In this document: piece by piece, positions 11,587 to 16,919 of the stretch
How the letters are laid out: each line of letters begins with the position of its first letter
Numbering within the stretch: position 1 is the first letter of the stretch
Source: Candidatus Acidiferrum sp.
Lineage (GTDB): Bacteria; Acidobacteriota; Terriglobia; Acidiferrales; UBA7541
Assembly (NCBI GenBank): GCA_035996445.1
Contig: DASYJM010000033.1
Coordinates: forward strand, 36,890 to 100,889
DNA length: 64,000 nucleotides
Reading direction: 5' to 3'
Made by a program: the position numbers and the translations under genes
Notes under the pieces: model-generated
The model's input: only the letters and a program-made list of their open reading frames with translations
Told to the model about the DNA's origin: nothing
Database searches by the model: none

Positions 11587-11898
11587 ATGACCTTTTTCGC
11601 TCGATTGATCAGGATTTTGTTCTGGGTGGTAATTGTCTCGTGGGGTGTTCGCCTCGCCGGACGACTTATCTCTGGCTTGTTGCAACCCGGCCAGAGGCGT
11701 GAGCCATTAAAGCCCACCAGCGACTTGGATGCCGGACAAAACGCACGCTTACTGGTGCGCGATCCCGTCTGTGGTGTGCACCTCGCGGAGGTACTTGCCA
11801 TTCCTCTGCGTACAAATGGTGAGTTGCTGCATTTCTGTTCGTTAGCGTGCCGCGATGCCTATTTAAACTCATCGCAGAAGCTAGCGGCGAACGCATGA
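11587..11898 (+). CDS. YHS/TRASH-domain membrane protein
   Basis: N-terminal TM segment, then RDPVCG...HFCSLACRDAY. Confidence 0.85.
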   Translation: MTFFARLIRILFWVVIVSWGVRLAGRLISGLLQPGQRREPLKPTSDLDAGQNARLLVRDPVCGVHLAEVLAIPLRTNGELLHFCSLACRDAYLNSSQKLAANA

Positions 11899-11985
11899 CG
11901 CGGCTTGAACTAGCAATAGTTGTTGGCTATCCAACGTTTTGAATATTGCTCTAGACGAACCCACTTGAGGAAAGGACCCGAGCCG

Positions 11986-13308
11986 ATGGCCACGGTCGCA
12001 AAGCCTACAGCCCCGACGAGACAGATTGGCGCGCCTCCCATGGTGCCGCGCATCGCTCCGCGGGAGGATTTGAACCCCTTTCGCATTTCGCAGATTCAAT
12101 TTGATATGGCTGCGGAATTCCTAAAGCTTGATCCCGGCCTGCGCCAGATTCTCCGCACGCCCAAGCGCATTCTGGAAGTTTCCATTCCCACCAAAATGGA
12201 CAATGGGCAGGTGAAAGTTCTCACCGGCTATCGCGTCCAGCACAATGTGGCACGCGGACCGGCTAAAGGCGGTGTGCGTTTTCATCCCAACCTTACGCTG
12301 GACGAAATGAAAGCTCTGGCTGCCGGCATGACCTGGAAGACGGCAACCGTGAACGTGCCTTTTGGAGGCGCACAAGGTGGTGTGATTTGTGATTCGAAAC
12401 GCATGTCCAAAGGTGAGCTGGAGCGTGTAACGCGCCGTTATGCCAGCGAAATTCTGCCGCTCATCGGGCCGTATATGGATATCCCCGCGCCTGACGTGTA
12501 CACCGACGCGCAGACGATGGCTTGGATGATGGATACCTACGCAATGACCGTGGGCCATGCGGCGCACGGATCCGTTACTGGGAAACCGTCGTCCATCGGC
12601 GGTTCGAATGGCCGTGAAGAAGCCATGGCTCGCGGGCTAGTTGCCGTGGTCGAGGAAGCATGCAAGCTCAAAAAAATCGCACTGCGCGGAGCTACTGTAG
12701 CCATTCAAGGATTCGGTCATTCAGGAGCCACCGTAGCGCAGCTCTTTGCCGAGAAAAAAGCTAAAATCATCGCCCTCAGCGATACTCGCGGTGGCGTAAC
12801 CAATTCGCGTGGCATCGACCCCATCAAAGCCATGCGCTACAAAGAACGCAGCGGCACGGTAGTAGGCATGCCCGGCGCTTCGCGCACCACCAACGACGAA
12901 TTGCTCACCATGAAATGCGACATCCTGGTGCCGGCTGCTCTCGAAAACGTCATCACGCTGAACAACGCCGAGGCCATCAAAGCACGCATTATTGCCGAAG
13001 CCGCCAACGGACCGACCACTCCCCACGCCGATGAGATTCTCGCTCGCAAGGGAATTACGGTGCTTCCAGACATCCTCGCCAATGCCGGAGGCGTCACCGT
13101 CAGCTATTTTGAGTGGGTGCAAAACCAGCAAGGGCTGATCTGGGACGCTGAAGAAGTAAATGCCCGCCTGCAAAAAACGATCGTGCGCGCTTTTCATGAA
13201 ATGGTTGAAACCATGCGCAAGCATCACGTCCCGCCGCGCGCCGGCGCCATGATTCTCGCCGTCGGACGCGTTGCCGAAGCTACTCTCGTCCGCGGTTTGT
13301 TCCCGTAA
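11986..13308 (+). CDS. gdhA: Glu/Leu/Phe/Val dehydrogenase homologue with catalytic Lys->Gln
   Basis: Motifs RVQHNVARGPAKGGVRF, MTWK, DIPAPD, AEAANGP and VTVSYFEW. GGAKGG reads GGAQGG. Start at ATG 11986. Confidence 0.88.
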   Translation: MATVAKPTAPTRQIGAPPMVPRIAPREDLNPFRISQIQFDMAAEFLKLDPGLRQILRTPKRILEVSIPTKMDNGQVKVLTGYRVQHNVARGPAKGGVRFHPNLTLDEMKALAAGMTWKTATVNVPFGGAQGGVICDSKRMSKGELERVTRRYASEILPLIGPYMDIPAPDVYTDAQTMAWMMDTYAMTVGHAAHGSVTGKPSSIGGSNGREEAMARGLVAVVEEACKLKKIALRGATVAIQGFGHSGATVAQLFAEKKAKIIALSDTRGGVTNSRGIDPIKAMRYKERSGTVVGMPGASRTTNDELLTMKCDILVPAALENVITLNNAEAIKARIIAEAANGPTTPHADEILARKGITVLPDILANAGGVTVSYFEWVQNQQGLIWDAEEVNARLQKTIVRAFHEMVETMRKHHVPPRAGAMILAVGRVAEATLVRGLFP

Positions 13309-13601: not shown

Positions 13602-14480
13602 ATGTCTAACCACATAAACGTGGCTCCAAATTTATTGCTCACCATCGCTGGATTCGATCCTTCGTGCGGCGCGGGCATCGCGGCCGACCTCAAAACTTTT
13701 GCTGCTCATGGTTGTTACGGCGTGGCGGCAATCACTTCACTGACGGTGCAGAGTACCGAAGGCGTGCAAGCGGTCCACAATACTCCCAGTGCTGAACTGC
13801 GAGAACAATTGGAAGTATTGGCTAAAGACTGCGACATCGCGGCGGTAAAGATCGGCATGCTTGGCAATCGCGGAAACGCCGTGGTTGTCGCTGAATTTCT
13901 GGATGCGCACAAATTCGCGCATGTCGTCCACGATCCAGTGATGAAATCTTCCAGCGGAGCGGAACTGCTCGATGCCGCCGGGCTCAAATATCTCACAACA
14001 GAGCTGCTGAAGCGTTCGACGGTCATCACTCCTAATGTGCCCGAGGCAGAAATTTTAACTGGGCTGGAAATCAAGGACGTTGCTGGCATGGAAGCCGCCG
14101 CCAGAAAGATTGTCGAGATGGGCGCGCACGCGGTAATCGTAAAAGGCGGTCACATGGAGCGCGCCGTCGACGTACTTTTTGACGGTGAACGAATCACTCA
14201 GCTGGGCGGCGACCGCGTAAAAGCGGACAACAATCACGGAACGGGTTGTACCTTCGCGTCAGCGATTGCCGCGCAGCTAGCCTCCGGCCGCGGATTGGCG
14301 GAAGCCGCTATGCTCGCCAAGGCCTACGTTACGAAAGCCATCGAAAAGGGCTACGCCATCGGCAAAGGCCGCATCCCGTTGGATCATTTCTACCGCCTGC
14401 GTACTGAACCGCCGGCGCGCGGTATCCATGAAGTTCCACAACACGGGATGCATCCCGCCGCCGAACCCACGGCCCATTAA
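13602..14480 (+). CDS. thiD: hydroxymethylpyrimidine/phosphomethylpyrimidine kinase
   Basis: Motifs LTIAGFDPSCGAGIAADLK, VKIGML, HDPVM, ITPN and HGTGCT. Confidence 0.94.
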   Translation: MSNHINVAPNLLLTIAGFDPSCGAGIAADLKTFAAHGCYGVAAITSLTVQSTEGVQAVHNTPSAELREQLEVLAKDCDIAAVKIGMLGNRGNAVVVAEFLDAHKFAHVVHDPVMKSSSGAELLDAAGLKYLTTELLKRSTVITPNVPEAEILTGLEIKDVAGMEAAARKIVEMGAHAVIVKGGHMERAVDVLFDGERITQLGGDRVKADNNHGTGCTFASAIAAQLASGRGLAEAAMLAKAYVTKAIEKGYAIGKGRIPLDHFYRLRTEPPARGIHEVPQHGMHPAAEPTAH

Positions 14481-14544
14481 TTCAAGGGGAAGTACCGGCG
14501 AATATGTTTCCGCGCACGAGTGATCGAAGTTCTGAAGTTGGTGG

Positions 14545-15816
14545 CTATCGTTTCCACACTACACGGCCCGCGACAATCGTAGCCATGGGTCCACCCTTGA
14601 AGCTCCGCCCGTCGAATGGCGAGTTCCGTGATTTGCTGGATGACTCCTTGACGTTATAAGTCCACTGATGGTCTGTGGAAAAAAGCGTCAGGTCTGCCAT
14701 CTCGCCAGCGACAATTTTTCGTTCCATGCCAAAAACTTTCGCCGGTCCCGTGGTGAACAATTCCACCATGCGCATCAGCGTGACCTTTCCGCTGTGCACG
14801 AGTTCCATCGCAAGCCCCACCGCCGTTTCAAATCCCAAAATGCCAAAAGGCGCGCGATCAAATTCCACATCCTTCAAAGCCGGCTCATGTGGCGCGTGAT
14901 CTGTTGCTATCGCATCCACGGTACCGTCCGCGAGTCCAGCCAGCAATGCGTCACGGTCTTGGCGCGCGGCTAATGGCGGATTCATTTTGAATCGCGAATC
15001 GTATTGCACATCCTCATCGATCAGTGTGAAGTGATGCGGCGTGACCTCGCAGCTGACCTTCAAGCCGCGCTTTTTCGCCGAGCGCACCAGCTCCAGTGAA
15101 CTCCGCGCTGAAAGATGCGCGATATGCAGCCGGGCTTCCGTTAATTCCGCCAGTTGAACGTCCCGCGCCACGCACACCGACTCAGCCGCGGCAGGCATTC
15201 CGCGTAAACCCAGTCGCGTGGAGGTAACTCCTTCGCGCATCACCGCACCATGCGCGAGAGAAACATCTTCGGCGTGCTCAATCACCGGCAGATCCAGCGA
15301 TCGGCAGTAGTCCATCACTTGCCGCGCCAGTTTTGCCGTAGCGATGGGCTTGCCATCATCGGACACCGCGACGATGCCAGCTTCCTTCATGGCTGCAATT
15401 TCCGCGATGTTTTCTCCTTTGCTGCCCACTGATGCCGCGCCGATCGGCCACACCCGCACGCTGCCGGTGGATCTCGCGCGATCCACAATAAATCGCGTAA
15501 CCGAGGCGTTGTCATTCACCGGTTTGGTGTTGGGCATGCAACACACGGCGGTAAAGCCACCTCGCGCCGCTGCTCGCGTGCCCGTCTCGATGCTTTCCGA
15601 AGACTCCTGGCCAGGTTCTCGCAAATGCACATGCATGTCGATAAAACCTGGCGCAATAATCAATCCGGCCGCATCGAAAATTTCGGCATCTCGTACATTG
15701 GTAATCTTTCCAGGCGCGCCAATCTGCGCGATTTTCTCACCGTCGAGAAGAAGGTCCTGCGCTGCATCCGTTTTCGTGGCTGGATCCAGCACCCTACCGT
15801 TCTTAATCAGCAGCAT
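14545..15816 (-). CDS. pyrC: dihydroorotase (type I)
   Basis: Motifs FIDMHVHLREPG, CCMPNT, EVTPHH, KMNPPL and ATDHAPH. Start at ATG 15816. Confidence 0.95.
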   Translation of the reverse strand: MLLIKNGRVLDPATKTDAAQDLLLDGEKIAQIGAPGKITNVRDAEIFDAAGLIIAPGFIDMHVHLREPGQESSESIETGTRAAARGGFTAVCCMPNTKPVNDNASVTRFIVDRARSTGSVRVWPIGAASVGSKGENIAEIAAMKEAGIVAVSDDGKPIATAKLARQVMDYCRSLDLPVIEHAEDVSLAHGAVMREGVTSTRLGLRGMPAAAESVCVARDVQLAELTEARLHIAHLSARSSLELVRSAKKRGLKVSCEVTPHHFTLIDEDVQYDSRFKMNPPLAARQDRDALLAGLADGTVDAIATDHAPHEPALKDVEFDRAPFGILGFETAVGLAMELVHSGKVTLMRMVELFTTGPAKVFGMERKIVAGEMADLTLFSTDHQWTYNVKESSSKSRNSPFDGRSFKGGPMATIVAGRVVWKR

Positions 15817-16825
15817 GCGTGGATTCCTTTTTTTCTGGCGAGGCGGCCGAGCCACCCAATGCTTCATCCGCGACGGGGTTTTCTCCGCCTTCCGTCGATC
15901 CGGAGATCAGCAAGAACAGCAGTGCCATGCGCACAGCGATACCGTTGGTGACCTGTTCGAGAACGCACGACTGCGGTCCATCCGCCACTTCCGGCGAAAT
16001 TTCCACTCCGCGATTCATGGGGCCTGGATGCAGAATAAGCGCATTTGGATTGGCTAGCCGCAACCGCTCGGCATTCAGTTGATACAGCAAAATATATTCT
16101 TCCGCGGAAAGTGTGGGCTCATACATTCGTTCGGTCTGCACCCGGAGCACCAGGATCACGTCCGCATCTTCAAGCCCTTCCTCGATTCGTGACACGCGAC
16201 GAATCACGGCTCCGGGAGGACCGATTTTTTCTAGCTCCTTCGGGACCCACATCGCCGGGCCGCACAGAGTGAACTGACAGCCGAATTTACCCAACAAATG
16301 AATATTTGAACGCGCCACCCGACTGTGTTGAATGTCGCCCAGAATGGTGACTTTCAAATTTTCGATCGAGCCGCGCCGGTCCCGAATGGTTAGCGCGTCC
16401 AACAATCCTTGCGACGGATGCTCGTGCGTGCCGTCGCCGGCGTTGATGACCGGTATATCAAGATTGCGCGCCACGAAATCTGCCGCGCCGGACGCCGCGT
16501 GGCGCATCACCAGACAATCCGGTTTCATGGCATTCAAGGTATAGACGGTGTCCAGAAGCGATTCGCCCTTTTTCAAGCTGGACGCTTCCGCTTGCAGGTT
16601 CATGGTGTCTGCGCCCAGCCGTGAAGCCGCAGTACTAAAGCTAATACGCGTACGCGTGGAATTTTCGAAGAACGCCAGCGTGACGGTTTTCCCGCGCAGG
16701 GTGGCTAGCTTTTTTAGGGGATGCCGCTGAATTTCCTGGAAGAGTTTGCTCTGGTCCAGCAGAAAAGTTAGTTCGTCCGCGCTGAGCGGTTCAAGGGCCA
16801 GCAGATCGCGAAAGCGGTAGGTCAC
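15803..16825 (-). CDS. pyrB: aspartate carbamoyltransferase catalytic subunit
   Basis: Motifs FFENSTRT, INAGDGTHEHPSQGLLD and HPGPMNRG. Start taken as GTG 16825. Confidence 0.95.
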   Translation of the reverse strand: MTYRFRDLLALEPLSADELTFLLDQSKLFQEIQRHPLKKLATLRGKTVTLAFFENSTRTRISFSTAASRLGADTMNLQAEASSLKKGESLLDTVYTLNAMKPDCLVMRHAASGAADFVARNLDIPVINAGDGTHEHPSQGLLDALTIRDRRGSIENLKVTILGDIQHSRVARSNIHLLGKFGCQFTLCGPAMWVPKELEKIGPPGAVIRRVSRIEEGLEDADVILVLRVQTERMYEPTLSAEEYILLYQLNAERLRLANPNALILHPGPMNRGVEISPEVADGPQSCVLEQVTNGIAVRMALLFLLISGSTEGGENPVADEALGGSAASPEKKESTHAAD

Positions 16826-16919
16826 ATCGTCACTTATGGAATTACCGGCAAATCTTGATACGGTCGAACAGCGGCGAAGCACTAGCGATTCAAATCAATT
16901 CGTCGTCATGAAAATACTT

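What the first reader, a model, noticed from the sequence alone, without database searches (positions are those of the whole stretch)
11986..13308. Glutamate dehydrogenase homologue missing its Schiff-base lysine: probable pseudoenzyme or regulatory subunit
Seen: codon 12373-12375 is CAA, giving VPFGGAQGG instead of GGAKGG. The dinucleotide loop reads GFGHSG (usually GFGNVG) and GREEAMARG replaces the usual ATG-x-G. The two substrate lysines (GPAK, MTWK) and PAPD are retained and the frame is intact. Known: Thermus thermophilus uses a catalytically inactive GdhA as an allosteric subunit of GdhB. Inference: a ligand-sensing GDH-like subunit whose catalytic partner is not in this window.
Basis: partly seen in the sequence, partly recalled or inferred. 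Interest (0 to 1): 0.6.

Follow-up and report, generated by a model that had tools for sequence, protein, structure and literature searches.

The report
Glutamate dehydrogenase copy without catalytic lysine
A soil acidobacterium keeps, under strong selection, a second glutamate dehydrogenase gene whose key catalytic lysine has become glutamine; close relatives lost the same lysine at least eight separate times, so this copy most likely works as a ligand-binding helper and not as an enzyme.

Summary
Codon 12373-12375 (CAA) puts Gln at the catalytic lysine of a full-length, intact glutamate dehydrogenase (GDH). Thr214→Met and Asn245→His also remove the two residues that hold the nicotinamide amide.

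It is not a sequencing error. Gln is fixed in a monophyletic clade of 86 distinct sequences and 15 species, written as both CAA and CAG. dN/dS within the clade is about 0.03.

The orthologue keeps Lys in 131 other species of the genus and in other genera of the family, so the loss is recent. Lys was lost at least 8 independent times in this orthologue (to Gln, Met, Thr, Ser, Asn), mostly after the Asn had already changed. The genome's second, canonical GDH (contig C227) kept Lys in all 120 of its closest homologues.

Measured against that canonical copy, the Gln form evolves about 3-4 times faster. The newly variable sites lie in active-site loops, while the ADP-ribose, 2-oxoglutarate and oligomer-related residues stay invariant.

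Best reading: a non-catalytic, ligand-binding GDH-fold subunit or sensor that arose independently of Thermus GdhA. Its partner is unproven and unlinked.

The scan has noted lysine-less GDH copies before on other DNA. This is a new member of a known kind, and it is unusual in showing the transition step by step.

The parts
11986..13308 (+). CDS of the lysine-less GDH paralogue ('GDH-1', Gln type), 440 aa. An alternative start at 12040 gives the 422-aa form seen in some database entries.
   Evidence: Open frame. PF02812 + PF00208. E=3.6e-145 to T. maritima GDH. Conserved synteny SerRS - small ORF - GDH - ThiD - pyrC/pyrB/pyrR in relatives.
12373..12375 (+). Codon CAA = Gln130, at the position of the catalytic (water-activating) Lys
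   Evidence: Gln in 86/86 clade sequences. Codons CAG 17 / CAA 7 among clade DNA sequences.
12625..12627 (+). Codon ATG = Met214, replacing the Thr of GR-x-EAT that lines the nicotinamide pocket (AtGDH1 Thr185)
   Evidence: Role of the residue from PMC7326016.
12718..12723 (+). Codons CAT TCA = His245-Ser246 in GFGHSG. His replaces the Asn that H-bonds the nicotinamide amide (AtGDH1 Asn216).
   Evidence: His in 86/86 with CAT/CAC turnover, Ser written with 4 codons. PMC7326016.
12394..12396 (+). Codon TCG = Ser137. This position is Pro in all 248 Lys-type orthologues; in the Gln clade it is Pro, Ser or Ala.
12265..12267 (+). Lys94 (GPAKGG), a substrate-carboxylate lysine. Retained here, but replaced by Thr/Ile in 16 of 86 Gln-clade sequences.
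12337..12339 (+). Lys118 (MTWK), the second substrate lysine, invariant
12493..12495 (+). Asp170 (PAPD), the general-base Asp, invariant in all 351 sequences
11587..11898 (+). Conserved upstream neighbour: a 103-aa membrane-anchored TRASH/YHS-like Cys protein. Whether it belongs functionally to the GDH gene is unknown.
   Evidence: YHS E=0.013, below cut-off; motif present in 108 of 143 loci of at least 3 kb

Best explanation
The gene encodes a GDH-fold protein that no longer carries out, or barely carries out, the dehydrogenase reaction. It is nevertheless kept by selection as a ligand-binding, probably hexamer-forming, non-catalytic protein: a pseudoenzyme.

Shown:
- The water-activating Lys (130) and the two residues that orient the nicotinamide amide (Thr214, Asn245) are replaced by Gln, Met and His.
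- These replacements are themselves conserved.
- The residues that bind the ADP-ribose part of NAD(P), the substrate alpha-carboxylate Lys118, the general-base Asp170 and the C-terminal/allosteric-site residues are invariant.
- The gene is under strong purifying selection in at least 15 species.
- A catalytically intact GDH paralogue is encoded elsewhere in the genome.

Inferred:
- The protein senses a dinucleotide and/or 2-oxoglutarate/glutamate-type ligand and passes that signal to a partner.
- The partner is most simply the canonical GDH, through mixed hexamers as in Thermus GdhA/GdhB. I rate this sub-claim at only about 0.25-0.3.

Evolutionary path, inferred from the tree: an active orthologue first changed the nicotinamide-binding Asn. 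This made the catalytic Lys dispensable. Lys was then lost (here to Gln, with Ala246 to Ser), followed by Thr214 to Met, and in a subclade the substrate Lys94.
For: - Residue identities and alignment.
- Roles of the three replaced residues: PMC7326016. Lys102 primes the water; Asn216 and Thr185 form the nicotinamide site. The spacings K102-D142, T185-N216 and N216-N312-N337 match 130-170, 214-245 and 245-341-366 here.
- The homologous Lys-to-Gln/Ala/Arg mutants of leucine dehydrogenase keep about 1.5% activity (PMC12018205; PMC6033044).
- Fixation: Gln in 86/86 sequences of a clade with support 0.999, in 15 of 151 species orthologues read in the genus.
- Selection: pairwise dN/dS 0.026 (273 pairs) in the Gln clade and 0.015 in the Met clade. 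Synonymous codon turnover at Gln130, His245 and Ser246.
- Binding residues: R98, H100, Q241, G242/244/247, D266, A317/318, N341, N366, K118, D170, T173, R151, D183, R436, F439 and P440 are all 86/86 in the clade. S265 and L319 are 84/86.
- Catalysis is dispensable in this orthologue: 8 independent Lys losses, against Lys 120/120 in the canonical paralogue at the same divergence.
- The Lys-loss rate is about 27 times higher once Asn245 is replaced.
- Relaxation is local. The GDH-1/canonical amino-acid distance ratio is 2.0 in Gln-type species pairs and 0.75 in Lys-type pairs. The 10 sites that became variable are mostly in active-site loops (94, 101, 103, 137, 140, 162, 168, 252, 253).
- No new Lys or Arg appears among the 10 clade-defining substitutions.
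- A canonical GDH with all motifs lies at G000:C227. It was found in 16 of 20 lysine-less species.
- Precedents: Thermus GdhA (PMC9570180) and the Thermus alanine-dehydrogenase-like protein, which lost its catalytic Lys but senses NAD(H) (bioRxiv 10.1101/2025.10.31.685773).
Against: - No activity, binding or expression data exist.
- A Lys-to-Gln mutant of a related enzyme is not fully dead (about 1.5%), so 'inactive' is an inference.
- His245 is invariant and arose before the Lys loss, so it could in principle act as a substitute base.
- The partner is unproven. The two GDH genes are never adjacent: 78 kb apart in G302, 150 kb in G222, 162 kb in G190, 451 kb in G177.
- One 97%-complete Gln-type genome (G131) shows no canonical GDH.
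- Absolute dN/dS is no higher than in Lys-type orthologues (0.026 vs 0.032). With saturated dS (about 1.5) this comparison is weak.
- The relative-rate result rests on non-independent species pairs.
Confidence: 0.45

Rival explanations
1. It is a non-catalytic GDH-fold protein, but it does not work through the canonical GDH. It forms its own hexamer and regulates or scaffolds something else, for example glutamate synthase or a transcription factor, as Bacillus GudB/RocG do. This second job may already have existed in the active ancestor and is what selection now preserves.
For: - The two GDH genes are unlinked.
- G131 (97% complete) has the Gln form but no canonical GDH in its assembly.
- Lys-type orthologues are under equally strong constraint, and in Lys-type species GDH-1 is more conserved than the canonical enzyme (ratio 0.75). 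That fits a role beyond catalysis.
- GOGAT and two glutamine synthetases are present in the genome.
- A GudB-GltAB complex is reported in bioRxiv 10.1101/2021.04.12.439528 (listed, not read in detail).
Against: - No candidate partner is visible in the conserved neighbourhood (SerRS, small TRASH-like ORF, ThiD, pyr genes).
- The G131 absence is unresolved, because the flanks of the canonical gene are also missing from that assembly.
Confidence: 0.2
2. It is still an enzyme, either a slow GDH or one with changed chemistry or substrate. His245 (or solvent) takes over the base role of the lost Lys, and the pocket has been re-shaped by Gln130, Met214, Ser246 and Gly114.
For: - His245 arose before the Lys loss and is 86/86 conserved, with Gln130 and Ser246 also held by selection.
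- Asp170, Lys118 and the dinucleotide fold are intact.
- The Lys-to-Gln mutant of leucine dehydrogenase keeps measurable activity.
- dN/dS is very low.
Against: - Five of the eight Lys losses occurred without His at 245. These are the Met clade with Asn, the Thr and Asn lineages with Ser, and two singletons, so His is not needed for Lys to become dispensable.
- Both nicotinamide-amide contacts are lost together with the Lys (PMC7326016).
- The substrate Lys94 and pocket Ala168 decay further inside the clade, and active-site loops are where constraint relaxed.
- No relocated Lys or Arg is seen.
Confidence: 0.2
3. It is a redundant gene on its way to becoming a pseudogene. The second GDH makes it dispensable, and the Lys loss is the first step of decay.
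For: - Some species of the genus lack this orthologue altogether (e.g. G151, G213, G178).
- Amino-acid change is about 3-4 times faster relative to the canonical paralogue after Lys loss.
Against: - The frame is intact in all 86 clade sequences and 15 species.
- dN/dS is 0.026 with synonymous divergence at saturation.
- 297 of 416 columns were invariant in the first set of 73 clade sequences.
- The replacement residues are themselves conserved through synonymous changes.
Confidence: 0.03
4. It is a sequencing or assembly error at one base (AAA read as CAA).
For: None found.
Against: - The identical protein occurs on 8 contigs from NCBI, JGI, ENA and Logan.
- Gln is present in 15 species genomes and 86 distinct sequences, with both Gln codons.
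- The change co-occurs with nine other clade-defining substitutions.
Confidence: 0

Closest known systems
Thermus thermophilus GdhA, the catalytically inactive regulatory subunit of the GdhA4-GdhB2 heterohexameric GDH (PDB 3AOE; Tomita et al. 2010, 2011, as cited in PMC9570180)
   Same: - A full-length GDH paralogue without (useful) catalysis, kept beside a catalytic paralogue in the same genome.
- The residues that PMC9570180 names for the leucine site (Arg, Asp, and the C-terminal Arg-x-x-aromatic-Pro) have counterparts here (R151, D183, R436, F439, P440), all invariant.
   Different: - Not an orthologue: the window protein scores 412 bits to GdhB (3aoe_A) and 310 bits to GdhA (3aoe_E).
- It arose recently inside one genus from an active orthologue.
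- Its gene is not next to the catalytic paralogue's gene. Operon linkage of Thermus gdhA-gdhB is my recollection of Tomita 2010, which I could not read.
- Hetero-oligomer formation and leucine activation are untested.
- I could not retrieve the GdhA sequence, so I do not know which residues make GdhA inactive.
Canonical short hexameric GDH (Thermotoga maritima 1b26/2tmg, Arabidopsis GDH1 6yeh, and the genome's own second GDH at G000:C227)
   Same: - Same two-domain architecture and length.
- E=3.6e-145 to 1b26 and 48% identity to the genome's canonical paralogue.
- Asp170, Lys118, the GxGxxG motif, the ribose- and adenine-binding residues and the C-terminal helix are all present.
   Different: - Catalytic Lys to Gln.
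- Nicotinamide contacts Asn to His and Thr to Met.
- Trp114 to Gly next to MTWK, and Pro137 to Ser.
- The canonical paralogue keeps all of these in 119-120 of its 120 closest homologues.
Thermus thermophilus ADLP, an alanine-dehydrogenase-like pseudoenzyme that lost its catalytic Lys, still binds NAD(H) and regulates a CoA transferase (bioRxiv 10.1101/2025.10.31.685773)
   Same: An amino-acid dehydrogenase homologue with the catalytic Lys replaced and the dinucleotide-binding site retained. It is a model for an NAD(H)-sensing regulatory pseudoenzyme.
   Different: A different protein family (alanine dehydrogenase, not ELFV). Its partner is an unrelated enzyme. No partner is known here.
Lysine-less GDH/LeuDH paralogues noted earlier by this scan in Anaerolineae, Chloroflexota, Asgard archaea, WOR-3, Bacteroidales and others (unchecked AI notes)
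   Same: A full-length ELFV dehydrogenase homologue with the catalytic Lys replaced (one Asgard case also Lys to Gln), under selection. Recurrent independent losses were reported for some of them.
   Different: - Most of those sit in operons with a normal GDH and/or ATP-grasp or dikinase-like partners and are old, clade-wide losses.
- This one has no such neighbours. It is young, with Lys-bearing orthologues at up to about 90% identity.
- It shows the order of the steps.

Membership tests
ELFV (Glu/Leu/Phe/Val) dehydrogenase superfamily, short hexameric GDH | N-terminal dimerisation/substrate domain plus C-terminal NAD(P) domain (PF02812 + PF00208) over the curated cut-offs | tested here: met
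   188.2 and 255.8 bits against cut-offs of 25.3 and 23.4. Best NCBIfam matches are GDH models, but below their equivalog cut-offs.
ELFV (Glu/Leu/Phe/Val) dehydrogenase superfamily, short hexameric GDH | Catalytic Lys in the GG-[SAG]-K-GG loop (activates water on the iminium intermediate) | tested here: not met
   Gln130, codon CAA at 12373-12375. Role of the residue from PMC7326016 and PMC6033044.
ELFV (Glu/Leu/Phe/Val) dehydrogenase superfamily, short hexameric GDH | General-base Asp and the two substrate-carboxylate lysines | tested here: met
   Asp170, Lys94 and Lys118 are present in the window protein. Lys94 is lost in 16 of 86 clade members.
ELFV (Glu/Leu/Phe/Val) dehydrogenase superfamily, short hexameric GDH | Dinucleotide fold (GxGxxG) with the acidic residue after beta-2 and the ribose/adenine contacts | tested here: met
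   G242, G244, G247, D266, Q241, A317/318, N341 and N366 are invariant; S265 and L319 are 84/86.
ELFV (Glu/Leu/Phe/Val) dehydrogenase superfamily, short hexameric GDH | Nicotinamide-amide contacts (Asn of GxGN, Thr of GR-x-EAT) | tested here: not met
   His245 and Met214. Roles from PMC7326016.
ELFV (Glu/Leu/Phe/Val) dehydrogenase superfamily, short hexameric GDH | [quoted passage not shown] | not testable with these tools
   Needs an enzyme assay.
Thermus GdhA-type regulatory (inactive) GDH subunit | A catalytically competent GDH paralogue in the same genome | tested here: met
   G000:C227:15099-16370 (-), 423 aa, with GGAKGG, GRREATGRG and GFGNVG. Found in 16 of 20 lysine-less species.
Thermus GdhA-type regulatory (inactive) GDH subunit | Forms a hetero-oligomer with the catalytic paralogue and changes its kinetics (leucine activation) | not tested
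   Complex prediction was not run, because two GDH homologues would pass by likeness to solved hexamers. Needs co-purification.
Thermus GdhA-type regulatory (inactive) GDH subunit | Gene adjacent to, or in an operon with, the catalytic paralogue | tested here: not met
   Different contigs in G000. 78, 150, 162 and 451 kb apart in G302, G222, G190 and G177.
Thermus GdhA-type regulatory (inactive) GDH subunit | Orthology to GdhA | tested here: not met
   Higher score to GdhB (412.4 bits) than to GdhA (310.4 bits). Its own orthologues in 131 species of the genus are Lys-type GDHs.
Thermus GdhA-type regulatory (inactive) GDH subunit | Leucine allosteric-site residues at the subunit interface | tested here: inconclusive
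   R151, D183, R436, F439 and P440 are invariant. They were mapped only by position offset from the residue numbers in PMC9570180. They are equally present in the active paralogues.

The most novel reading that the evidence does not exclude
The remodelled pocket (Gln130, His245, Met214, Ser/Cys246, Gly114, each held by selection) is a newly shaped site and not a ruin. It binds a different ligand or supports different chemistry. The repeated 'nicotinamide-Asn first, catalytic Lys second' order seen in parallel lineages is a general, reproducible route by which an enzyme turns into a sensor. Because Lys-type and Gln-type orthologues differ by only about 10%, every step could be rebuilt and measured.
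Probability: 0.2. Interest if true: 0.65.

Novelty: new member of a known kind. Interest (0 to 1): 0.45.

Why it matters
Inactive enzyme copies that regulate their active relatives are known for GDH from one organism, Thermus. How such pseudoenzymes arise is mostly inferred from old, fully diverged examples.

Here the change is caught inside one very species-rich genus of soil Acidobacteriota:
- Active and lysine-less orthologues differ by only about 10% in sequence.
- The same lysine was lost at least eight times.
- The order of the steps is visible.
- A paralogue in the same genomes serves as an internal control.

That makes it a practical system for testing what selection preserves once catalysis is gone.

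It also matters for annotation. Every public record calls these proteins 'glutamate dehydrogenase (NAD(P)+)'. Metabolic reconstructions of these abundant soil bacteria therefore credit them with an enzyme activity this copy probably lacks.

Tried and rejected
- **Sequencing error:** rejected.
- **Pseudogene in decay:** rejected on dN/dS and intact frames.
- **Relocated catalytic Lys:** I looked for a gained Lys or Arg among the clade-defining substitutions and found none.
- **His245 as a necessary replacement base:** weakened, because five of eight Lys losses happened without His.
- **Orthology to Thermus GdhA:** rejected. Both paralogues of this genome resemble GdhB more.
- **State of the catalytic residues in Thermus GdhA:** not obtained. 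PMC3199488 and PMC6597394 are not held, and chain 3aoe_E never ranked among the alignments shown.
- **Complex prediction:** deliberately not run.
- **Structure prediction and fold search:** not run. The fold is not in question at E=1e-145.
- **Absence of the canonical GDH in G131, G203, G221, G287:** followed up. In G203 the contig ends at the flank. In G131 gene and flanks are both missing. So absence is unproven.
- **Promoter/terminator scan:** no more sites than in shuffles.
- **Absolute dN/dS comparison of Gln-type and Lys-type** (0.026 vs 0.032): judged unreliable because dS is saturated. Replaced by the paralogue-normalised comparison.
- **A metal-site reading of the His/Met/Gln/Cys pocket, prompted by the TRASH-like neighbour:** pure speculation. 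The neighbour is equally present beside Lys-type genes.
Full report
**1. What is in the sequence**

Window 11986-13308 (+) is an uninterrupted 440-codon frame. An in-frame ATG at 12040 gives the 422-aa form found in some database entries. The protein has both GDH Pfam domains and matches solved short hexameric GDHs along its whole length, best Thermotoga maritima 1b26 at E=3.6e-145.

In that alignment the catalytic loop PFGGGKGG of the enzyme reads PFGGAQGG here. Codon 12373-12375 is CAA.
- GFGHSG in place of GFGNVG.
- GREEAMARG in place of GREEATGRG.
- GPAK, MTWK and PAPD retained.

Two corrections apply. First, this Lys is not a Schiff-base former in the accepted mechanism. It primes the water that attacks the iminium intermediate, while the Asp of PAPD is the general base (PMC7326016; the same role is described for Lys80 of leucine dehydrogenase in PMC6033044). 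Second, the Gly-to-Ala in EATARG is shared by all Lys-bearing orthologues and is not part of the loss.

**2. What the three replaced residues do**

The Arabidopsis GDH1 structure paper states three things: Lys102 primes the water; the nicotinamide site is made by Asn312, Asn337, Thr185 and Asn216; and Asn216 fixes the orientation of the nicotinamide amide.

The spacings between these residues match the window protein:
- K102-D142 = 40, matching 130-170.
- T185-N216 = 31, matching 214-245.
- N216-N312-N337 = 96 and 25, matching 245-341-366.

So Gln130, Met214 and His245 replace exactly the water-activating Lys and the two amide contacts.

In contrast, the following residues are conserved in all 86 clade sequences: those the paper lists for adenine, pyrophosphate and ribose binding, plus Asp170, Lys118, Arg98 and His100. 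Ser265 and Leu319 are the exceptions, at 84 of 86.

For the homologous Lys of leucine dehydrogenase, Ala/Gln/Arg mutants keep about 1.5% of wild-type deamination activity (PMC12018205). Lys-to-Gln alone therefore cripples the enzyme but need not abolish activity. Here it is combined with loss of both nicotinamide contacts.

**3. Not an error, not a dying gene**

The exact protein occurs on 8 contigs from four independent sources, and its 90% cluster has 206 members. Among the 120 closest database proteins, every sequence at least 91% identical has the Gln/Met/His-Ser set.

I then read 151 species-level orthologues of the genus, out of 200 species sampled. The genus is labelled Candidatus Acidoferrum or Acidobacteriaceae in public records. 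The state at position 130 was:

| Residue | Species | Handles |
|---|---|---|
| Gln | 15 | G000, G147, G221, G266, G223, G152, G131, G203, G136, G287, G302, G191, G184, G313, G190 |
| Met | 4 | G234, G163, G146, G285 |
| Asn | 1 | G264 |
| Lys | 131 | |

G184 is an unpublished genome. The count is 14 Gln species without it, and no other claim depends on it.

Pairwise dN/dS (Nei-Gojobori):

| Comparison | dN/dS | Pairs |
|---|---|---|
| Gln clade | 0.026 | 273 (24 DNA sequences, dS about 1.5) |
| Met clade | 0.015 | 10 |
| Lys-type, similar protein divergence | 0.032 | 1380 |

(an earlier, smaller run is.)

The new residues are themselves maintained through synonymous change: Gln130 as CAG 17 / CAA 7, His245 as CAT 16 / CAC 8, and Ser246 in four codons.

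**4. The loss is recent, recurrent and ordered**

Across the family nearly every genome has two GDH paralogues: the orthologue of the window gene (66-88% identity) and a canonical one (47-50% identity) (121 genomes, 29 genera). All 29 orthologues read from other species keep Lys, Thr and Asn.

On a tree of 351 distinct orthologue sequences rooted with the canonical paralogue, parsimony needs 8 independent Lys losses:
- Gln (86 leaves, support 0.999)
- Met (6 leaves)
- Thr (3 leaves)
- Thr (2 leaves)
- Ser (2 leaves)
- Three singletons (Thr, Asn, Asn)

A matched control gives no losses at all. The 120 closest homologues of the canonical paralogue, at the same 86-98% identity, have Lys in 120/120, Asn in 119/120 and Thr in 119/120.

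Position 245 changed only twice. Asn-to-His defines a 92-leaf clade that contains the Gln, Ser and one Thr loss plus two Lys-retaining sequences. Asn-to-Ser defines a 7-leaf clade that contains a Thr and an Asn loss plus three Lys-retaining sequences.

Per unit branch length, Lys loss is about 27 times more frequent once Asn245 is replaced: 5 events in 0.42 substitutions per site, against 3 events in 6.9. The rough binomial p is 3e-5. This figure ignores tree uncertainty.

Within the window's lineage the order is:
1. N245H.
2. K130Q together with A246S.
3. T214M.
4. In one subclade, K94T/I and A168S.

**5. What changed in the selective regime**

I used the canonical paralogue of the same genomes as a clock, in 56 species with both genes.

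| Species pairs | GDH-1 / canonical amino-acid distance | Pairs where GDH-1 is faster |
|---|---|---|
| Lys-type | 0.75 (0.49 in the matched divergence range) | 14% of 820 |
| Gln-type | 2.04 | 87% of 45 |
| Met-type | 1.04 | 6 pairs in total |

The pairs are not independent, so this is a trend, not a test.

Ten sites are at least 97% conserved in Lys-type orthologues but at most 90% conserved in the Gln clade: 94, 101, 103, 137, 140, 162, 168, 196, 252 and 253. Almost all lie in the substrate loop, the catalytic loop, the PAPD loop or the helix after GxGxxG.

The ten clade-defining substitutions are V108M, W114G, K130Q, x211E, T214M, Y220A, N245H, A246S, A250V and I301T. None of them adds a Lys or Arg.

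So constraint relaxed by a factor of about 3-4, and it relaxed locally around the catalytic centre. The rest of the protein, including the dinucleotide site, stays tightly held.

**6. Surroundings and partner**

The neighbourhood is conserved in Lys-type and lysine-less species alike: seryl-tRNA synthetase, a 103-aa membrane-anchored TRASH/YHS-like ORF, the GDH gene, ThiD, then pyrC-pyrB-pyrR on the other strand. It gives no hint of a dedicated partner.

The genome holds a canonical GDH at C227:15099-16370 (-) with all motifs intact, and also GOGAT and two glutamine synthetases.

The canonical GDH was found in 181 of 201 genus genomes and 99 of 101 high-quality ones. Among the 20 lysine-less species it was found in 16. 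The four without it are G131 (97% complete), G203 (83%), G221 (78%) and G287 (63%). In G203 the contig ends at the flank of the gene. In G131 the gene and its flanks are both missing from the assembly. So true absence is not established.

Where both genes lie on one contig they are 78-451 kb apart.

Both paralogues resemble Thermus GdhB more than GdhA, so this pseudoenzyme arose independently of GdhA.

**7. Interpretation**

The most economical reading has two parts.

First, catalysis by this paralogue became dispensable in this genus, because the canonical GDH and GS-GOGAT cover the chemistry. A change of the nicotinamide-holding Asn then disabled the reaction, and the catalytic Lys followed repeatedly.

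Second, selection continues to preserve the fold, the dinucleotide and 2-oxo-acid binding residues and the C-terminal interface residues. That points to a ligand-binding, non-catalytic role.

Whether that role is exerted in mixed hexamers with the canonical GDH (as Thermus GdhA does; PMC9570180; bioRxiv 10.1101/2025.10.31.685773) or on another partner is open. Residual or altered catalysis, with the invariant His245 as a possible base, cannot be excluded from sequence alone.

**8. Comparison with what is known, and novelty**

Inactive GDH paralogues are a known kind (Thermus GdhA). This scan has already noted more than a dozen lysine-less GDH or LeuDH copies in other phyla. Those are unchecked notes and are used here only to judge novelty.

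This case is a new, independently evolved member. Its particular value is resolution: active and inactive orthologues about 10% apart, at least eight parallel losses, a visible order of steps and an internal control paralogue. All public records annotate the Gln-type proteins as glutamate dehydrogenase (NAD(P)+), which is probably wrong as a statement of activity.

**9. Limits**

- There are no biochemical, structural, interaction or expression data.
- Synonymous sites are saturated, so absolute dN/dS values are approximate.
- Deep nodes inside the His245 clade have weak support (0.36-0.69).
- The three singleton losses rest on one sequence each.
- Residue roles were transferred from AtGDH1 by motif and spacing, not by a structure of this protein.

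Noticed in passing
window 11587-11898 (+): A 103-aa ORF with an N-terminal transmembrane helix and a C-x21-C-x3-C TRASH/YHS-like motif (Pfam YHS E=0.013, below cut-off). It sits 88 nt upstream of the GDH gene. The motif is present in 108 of 143 related loci of at least 3 kb, beside Lys-type and lysine-less genes alike. Earlier scan notes mention small Cys-rich proteins heading GDH operons in other phyla; whether this is related is unknown.
   Followed up: partly
window 11921-11936 (+): A short hairpin (6-bp stem, 4-nt loop) followed by a T-run lies between the small ORF and the GDH start. It could be a weak terminator or attenuator. The scan found no more such sites than in shuffled sequence.
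   Followed up: no
G197 (C61:74065-75384 and C46:6246-7565): One genus member carries two copies of the GDH-1 orthologue, and no canonical GDH was found in it (94% complete, 5% contamination). This may be a real duplication or a mixed bin.
   Followed up: no
genus genomes G151, G213, G178 and others: Several species show only the canonical GDH (best match to the window protein about 1e-125), i.e. the GDH-1 orthologue was not found although the genomes are 91-96% complete. GDH-1 seems dispensable in part of the genus.
   Followed up: no
L068, L092, L216-L218, L221 (Met-type orthologues): The Lys-to-Met lineage also replaced the Arg of the GR-x-EA motif by Ser and Thr214 by Ala, while keeping Asn245. 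This is a different route to a disabled active site, with dN/dS 0.015.
   Followed up: partly
window 13602-16882: Downstream lie ThiD (phosphomethylpyrimidine kinase, + strand) and, on the - strand, dihydroorotase and aspartate carbamoyltransferase. Their longest open frames as listed overlap by 65 nt (15803-15867). They are followed in relatives by a PyrR-like phosphoribosyltransferase. This is ordinary housekeeping context.
   Followed up: no
public records of P0002-P0061 and others: All Gln-type proteins that carry a name are annotated 'glutamate dehydrogenase (NAD(P)+)' or 'Glu/Leu/Phe/Val dehydrogenase'. No record flags the missing catalytic lysine.
   Followed up: yes
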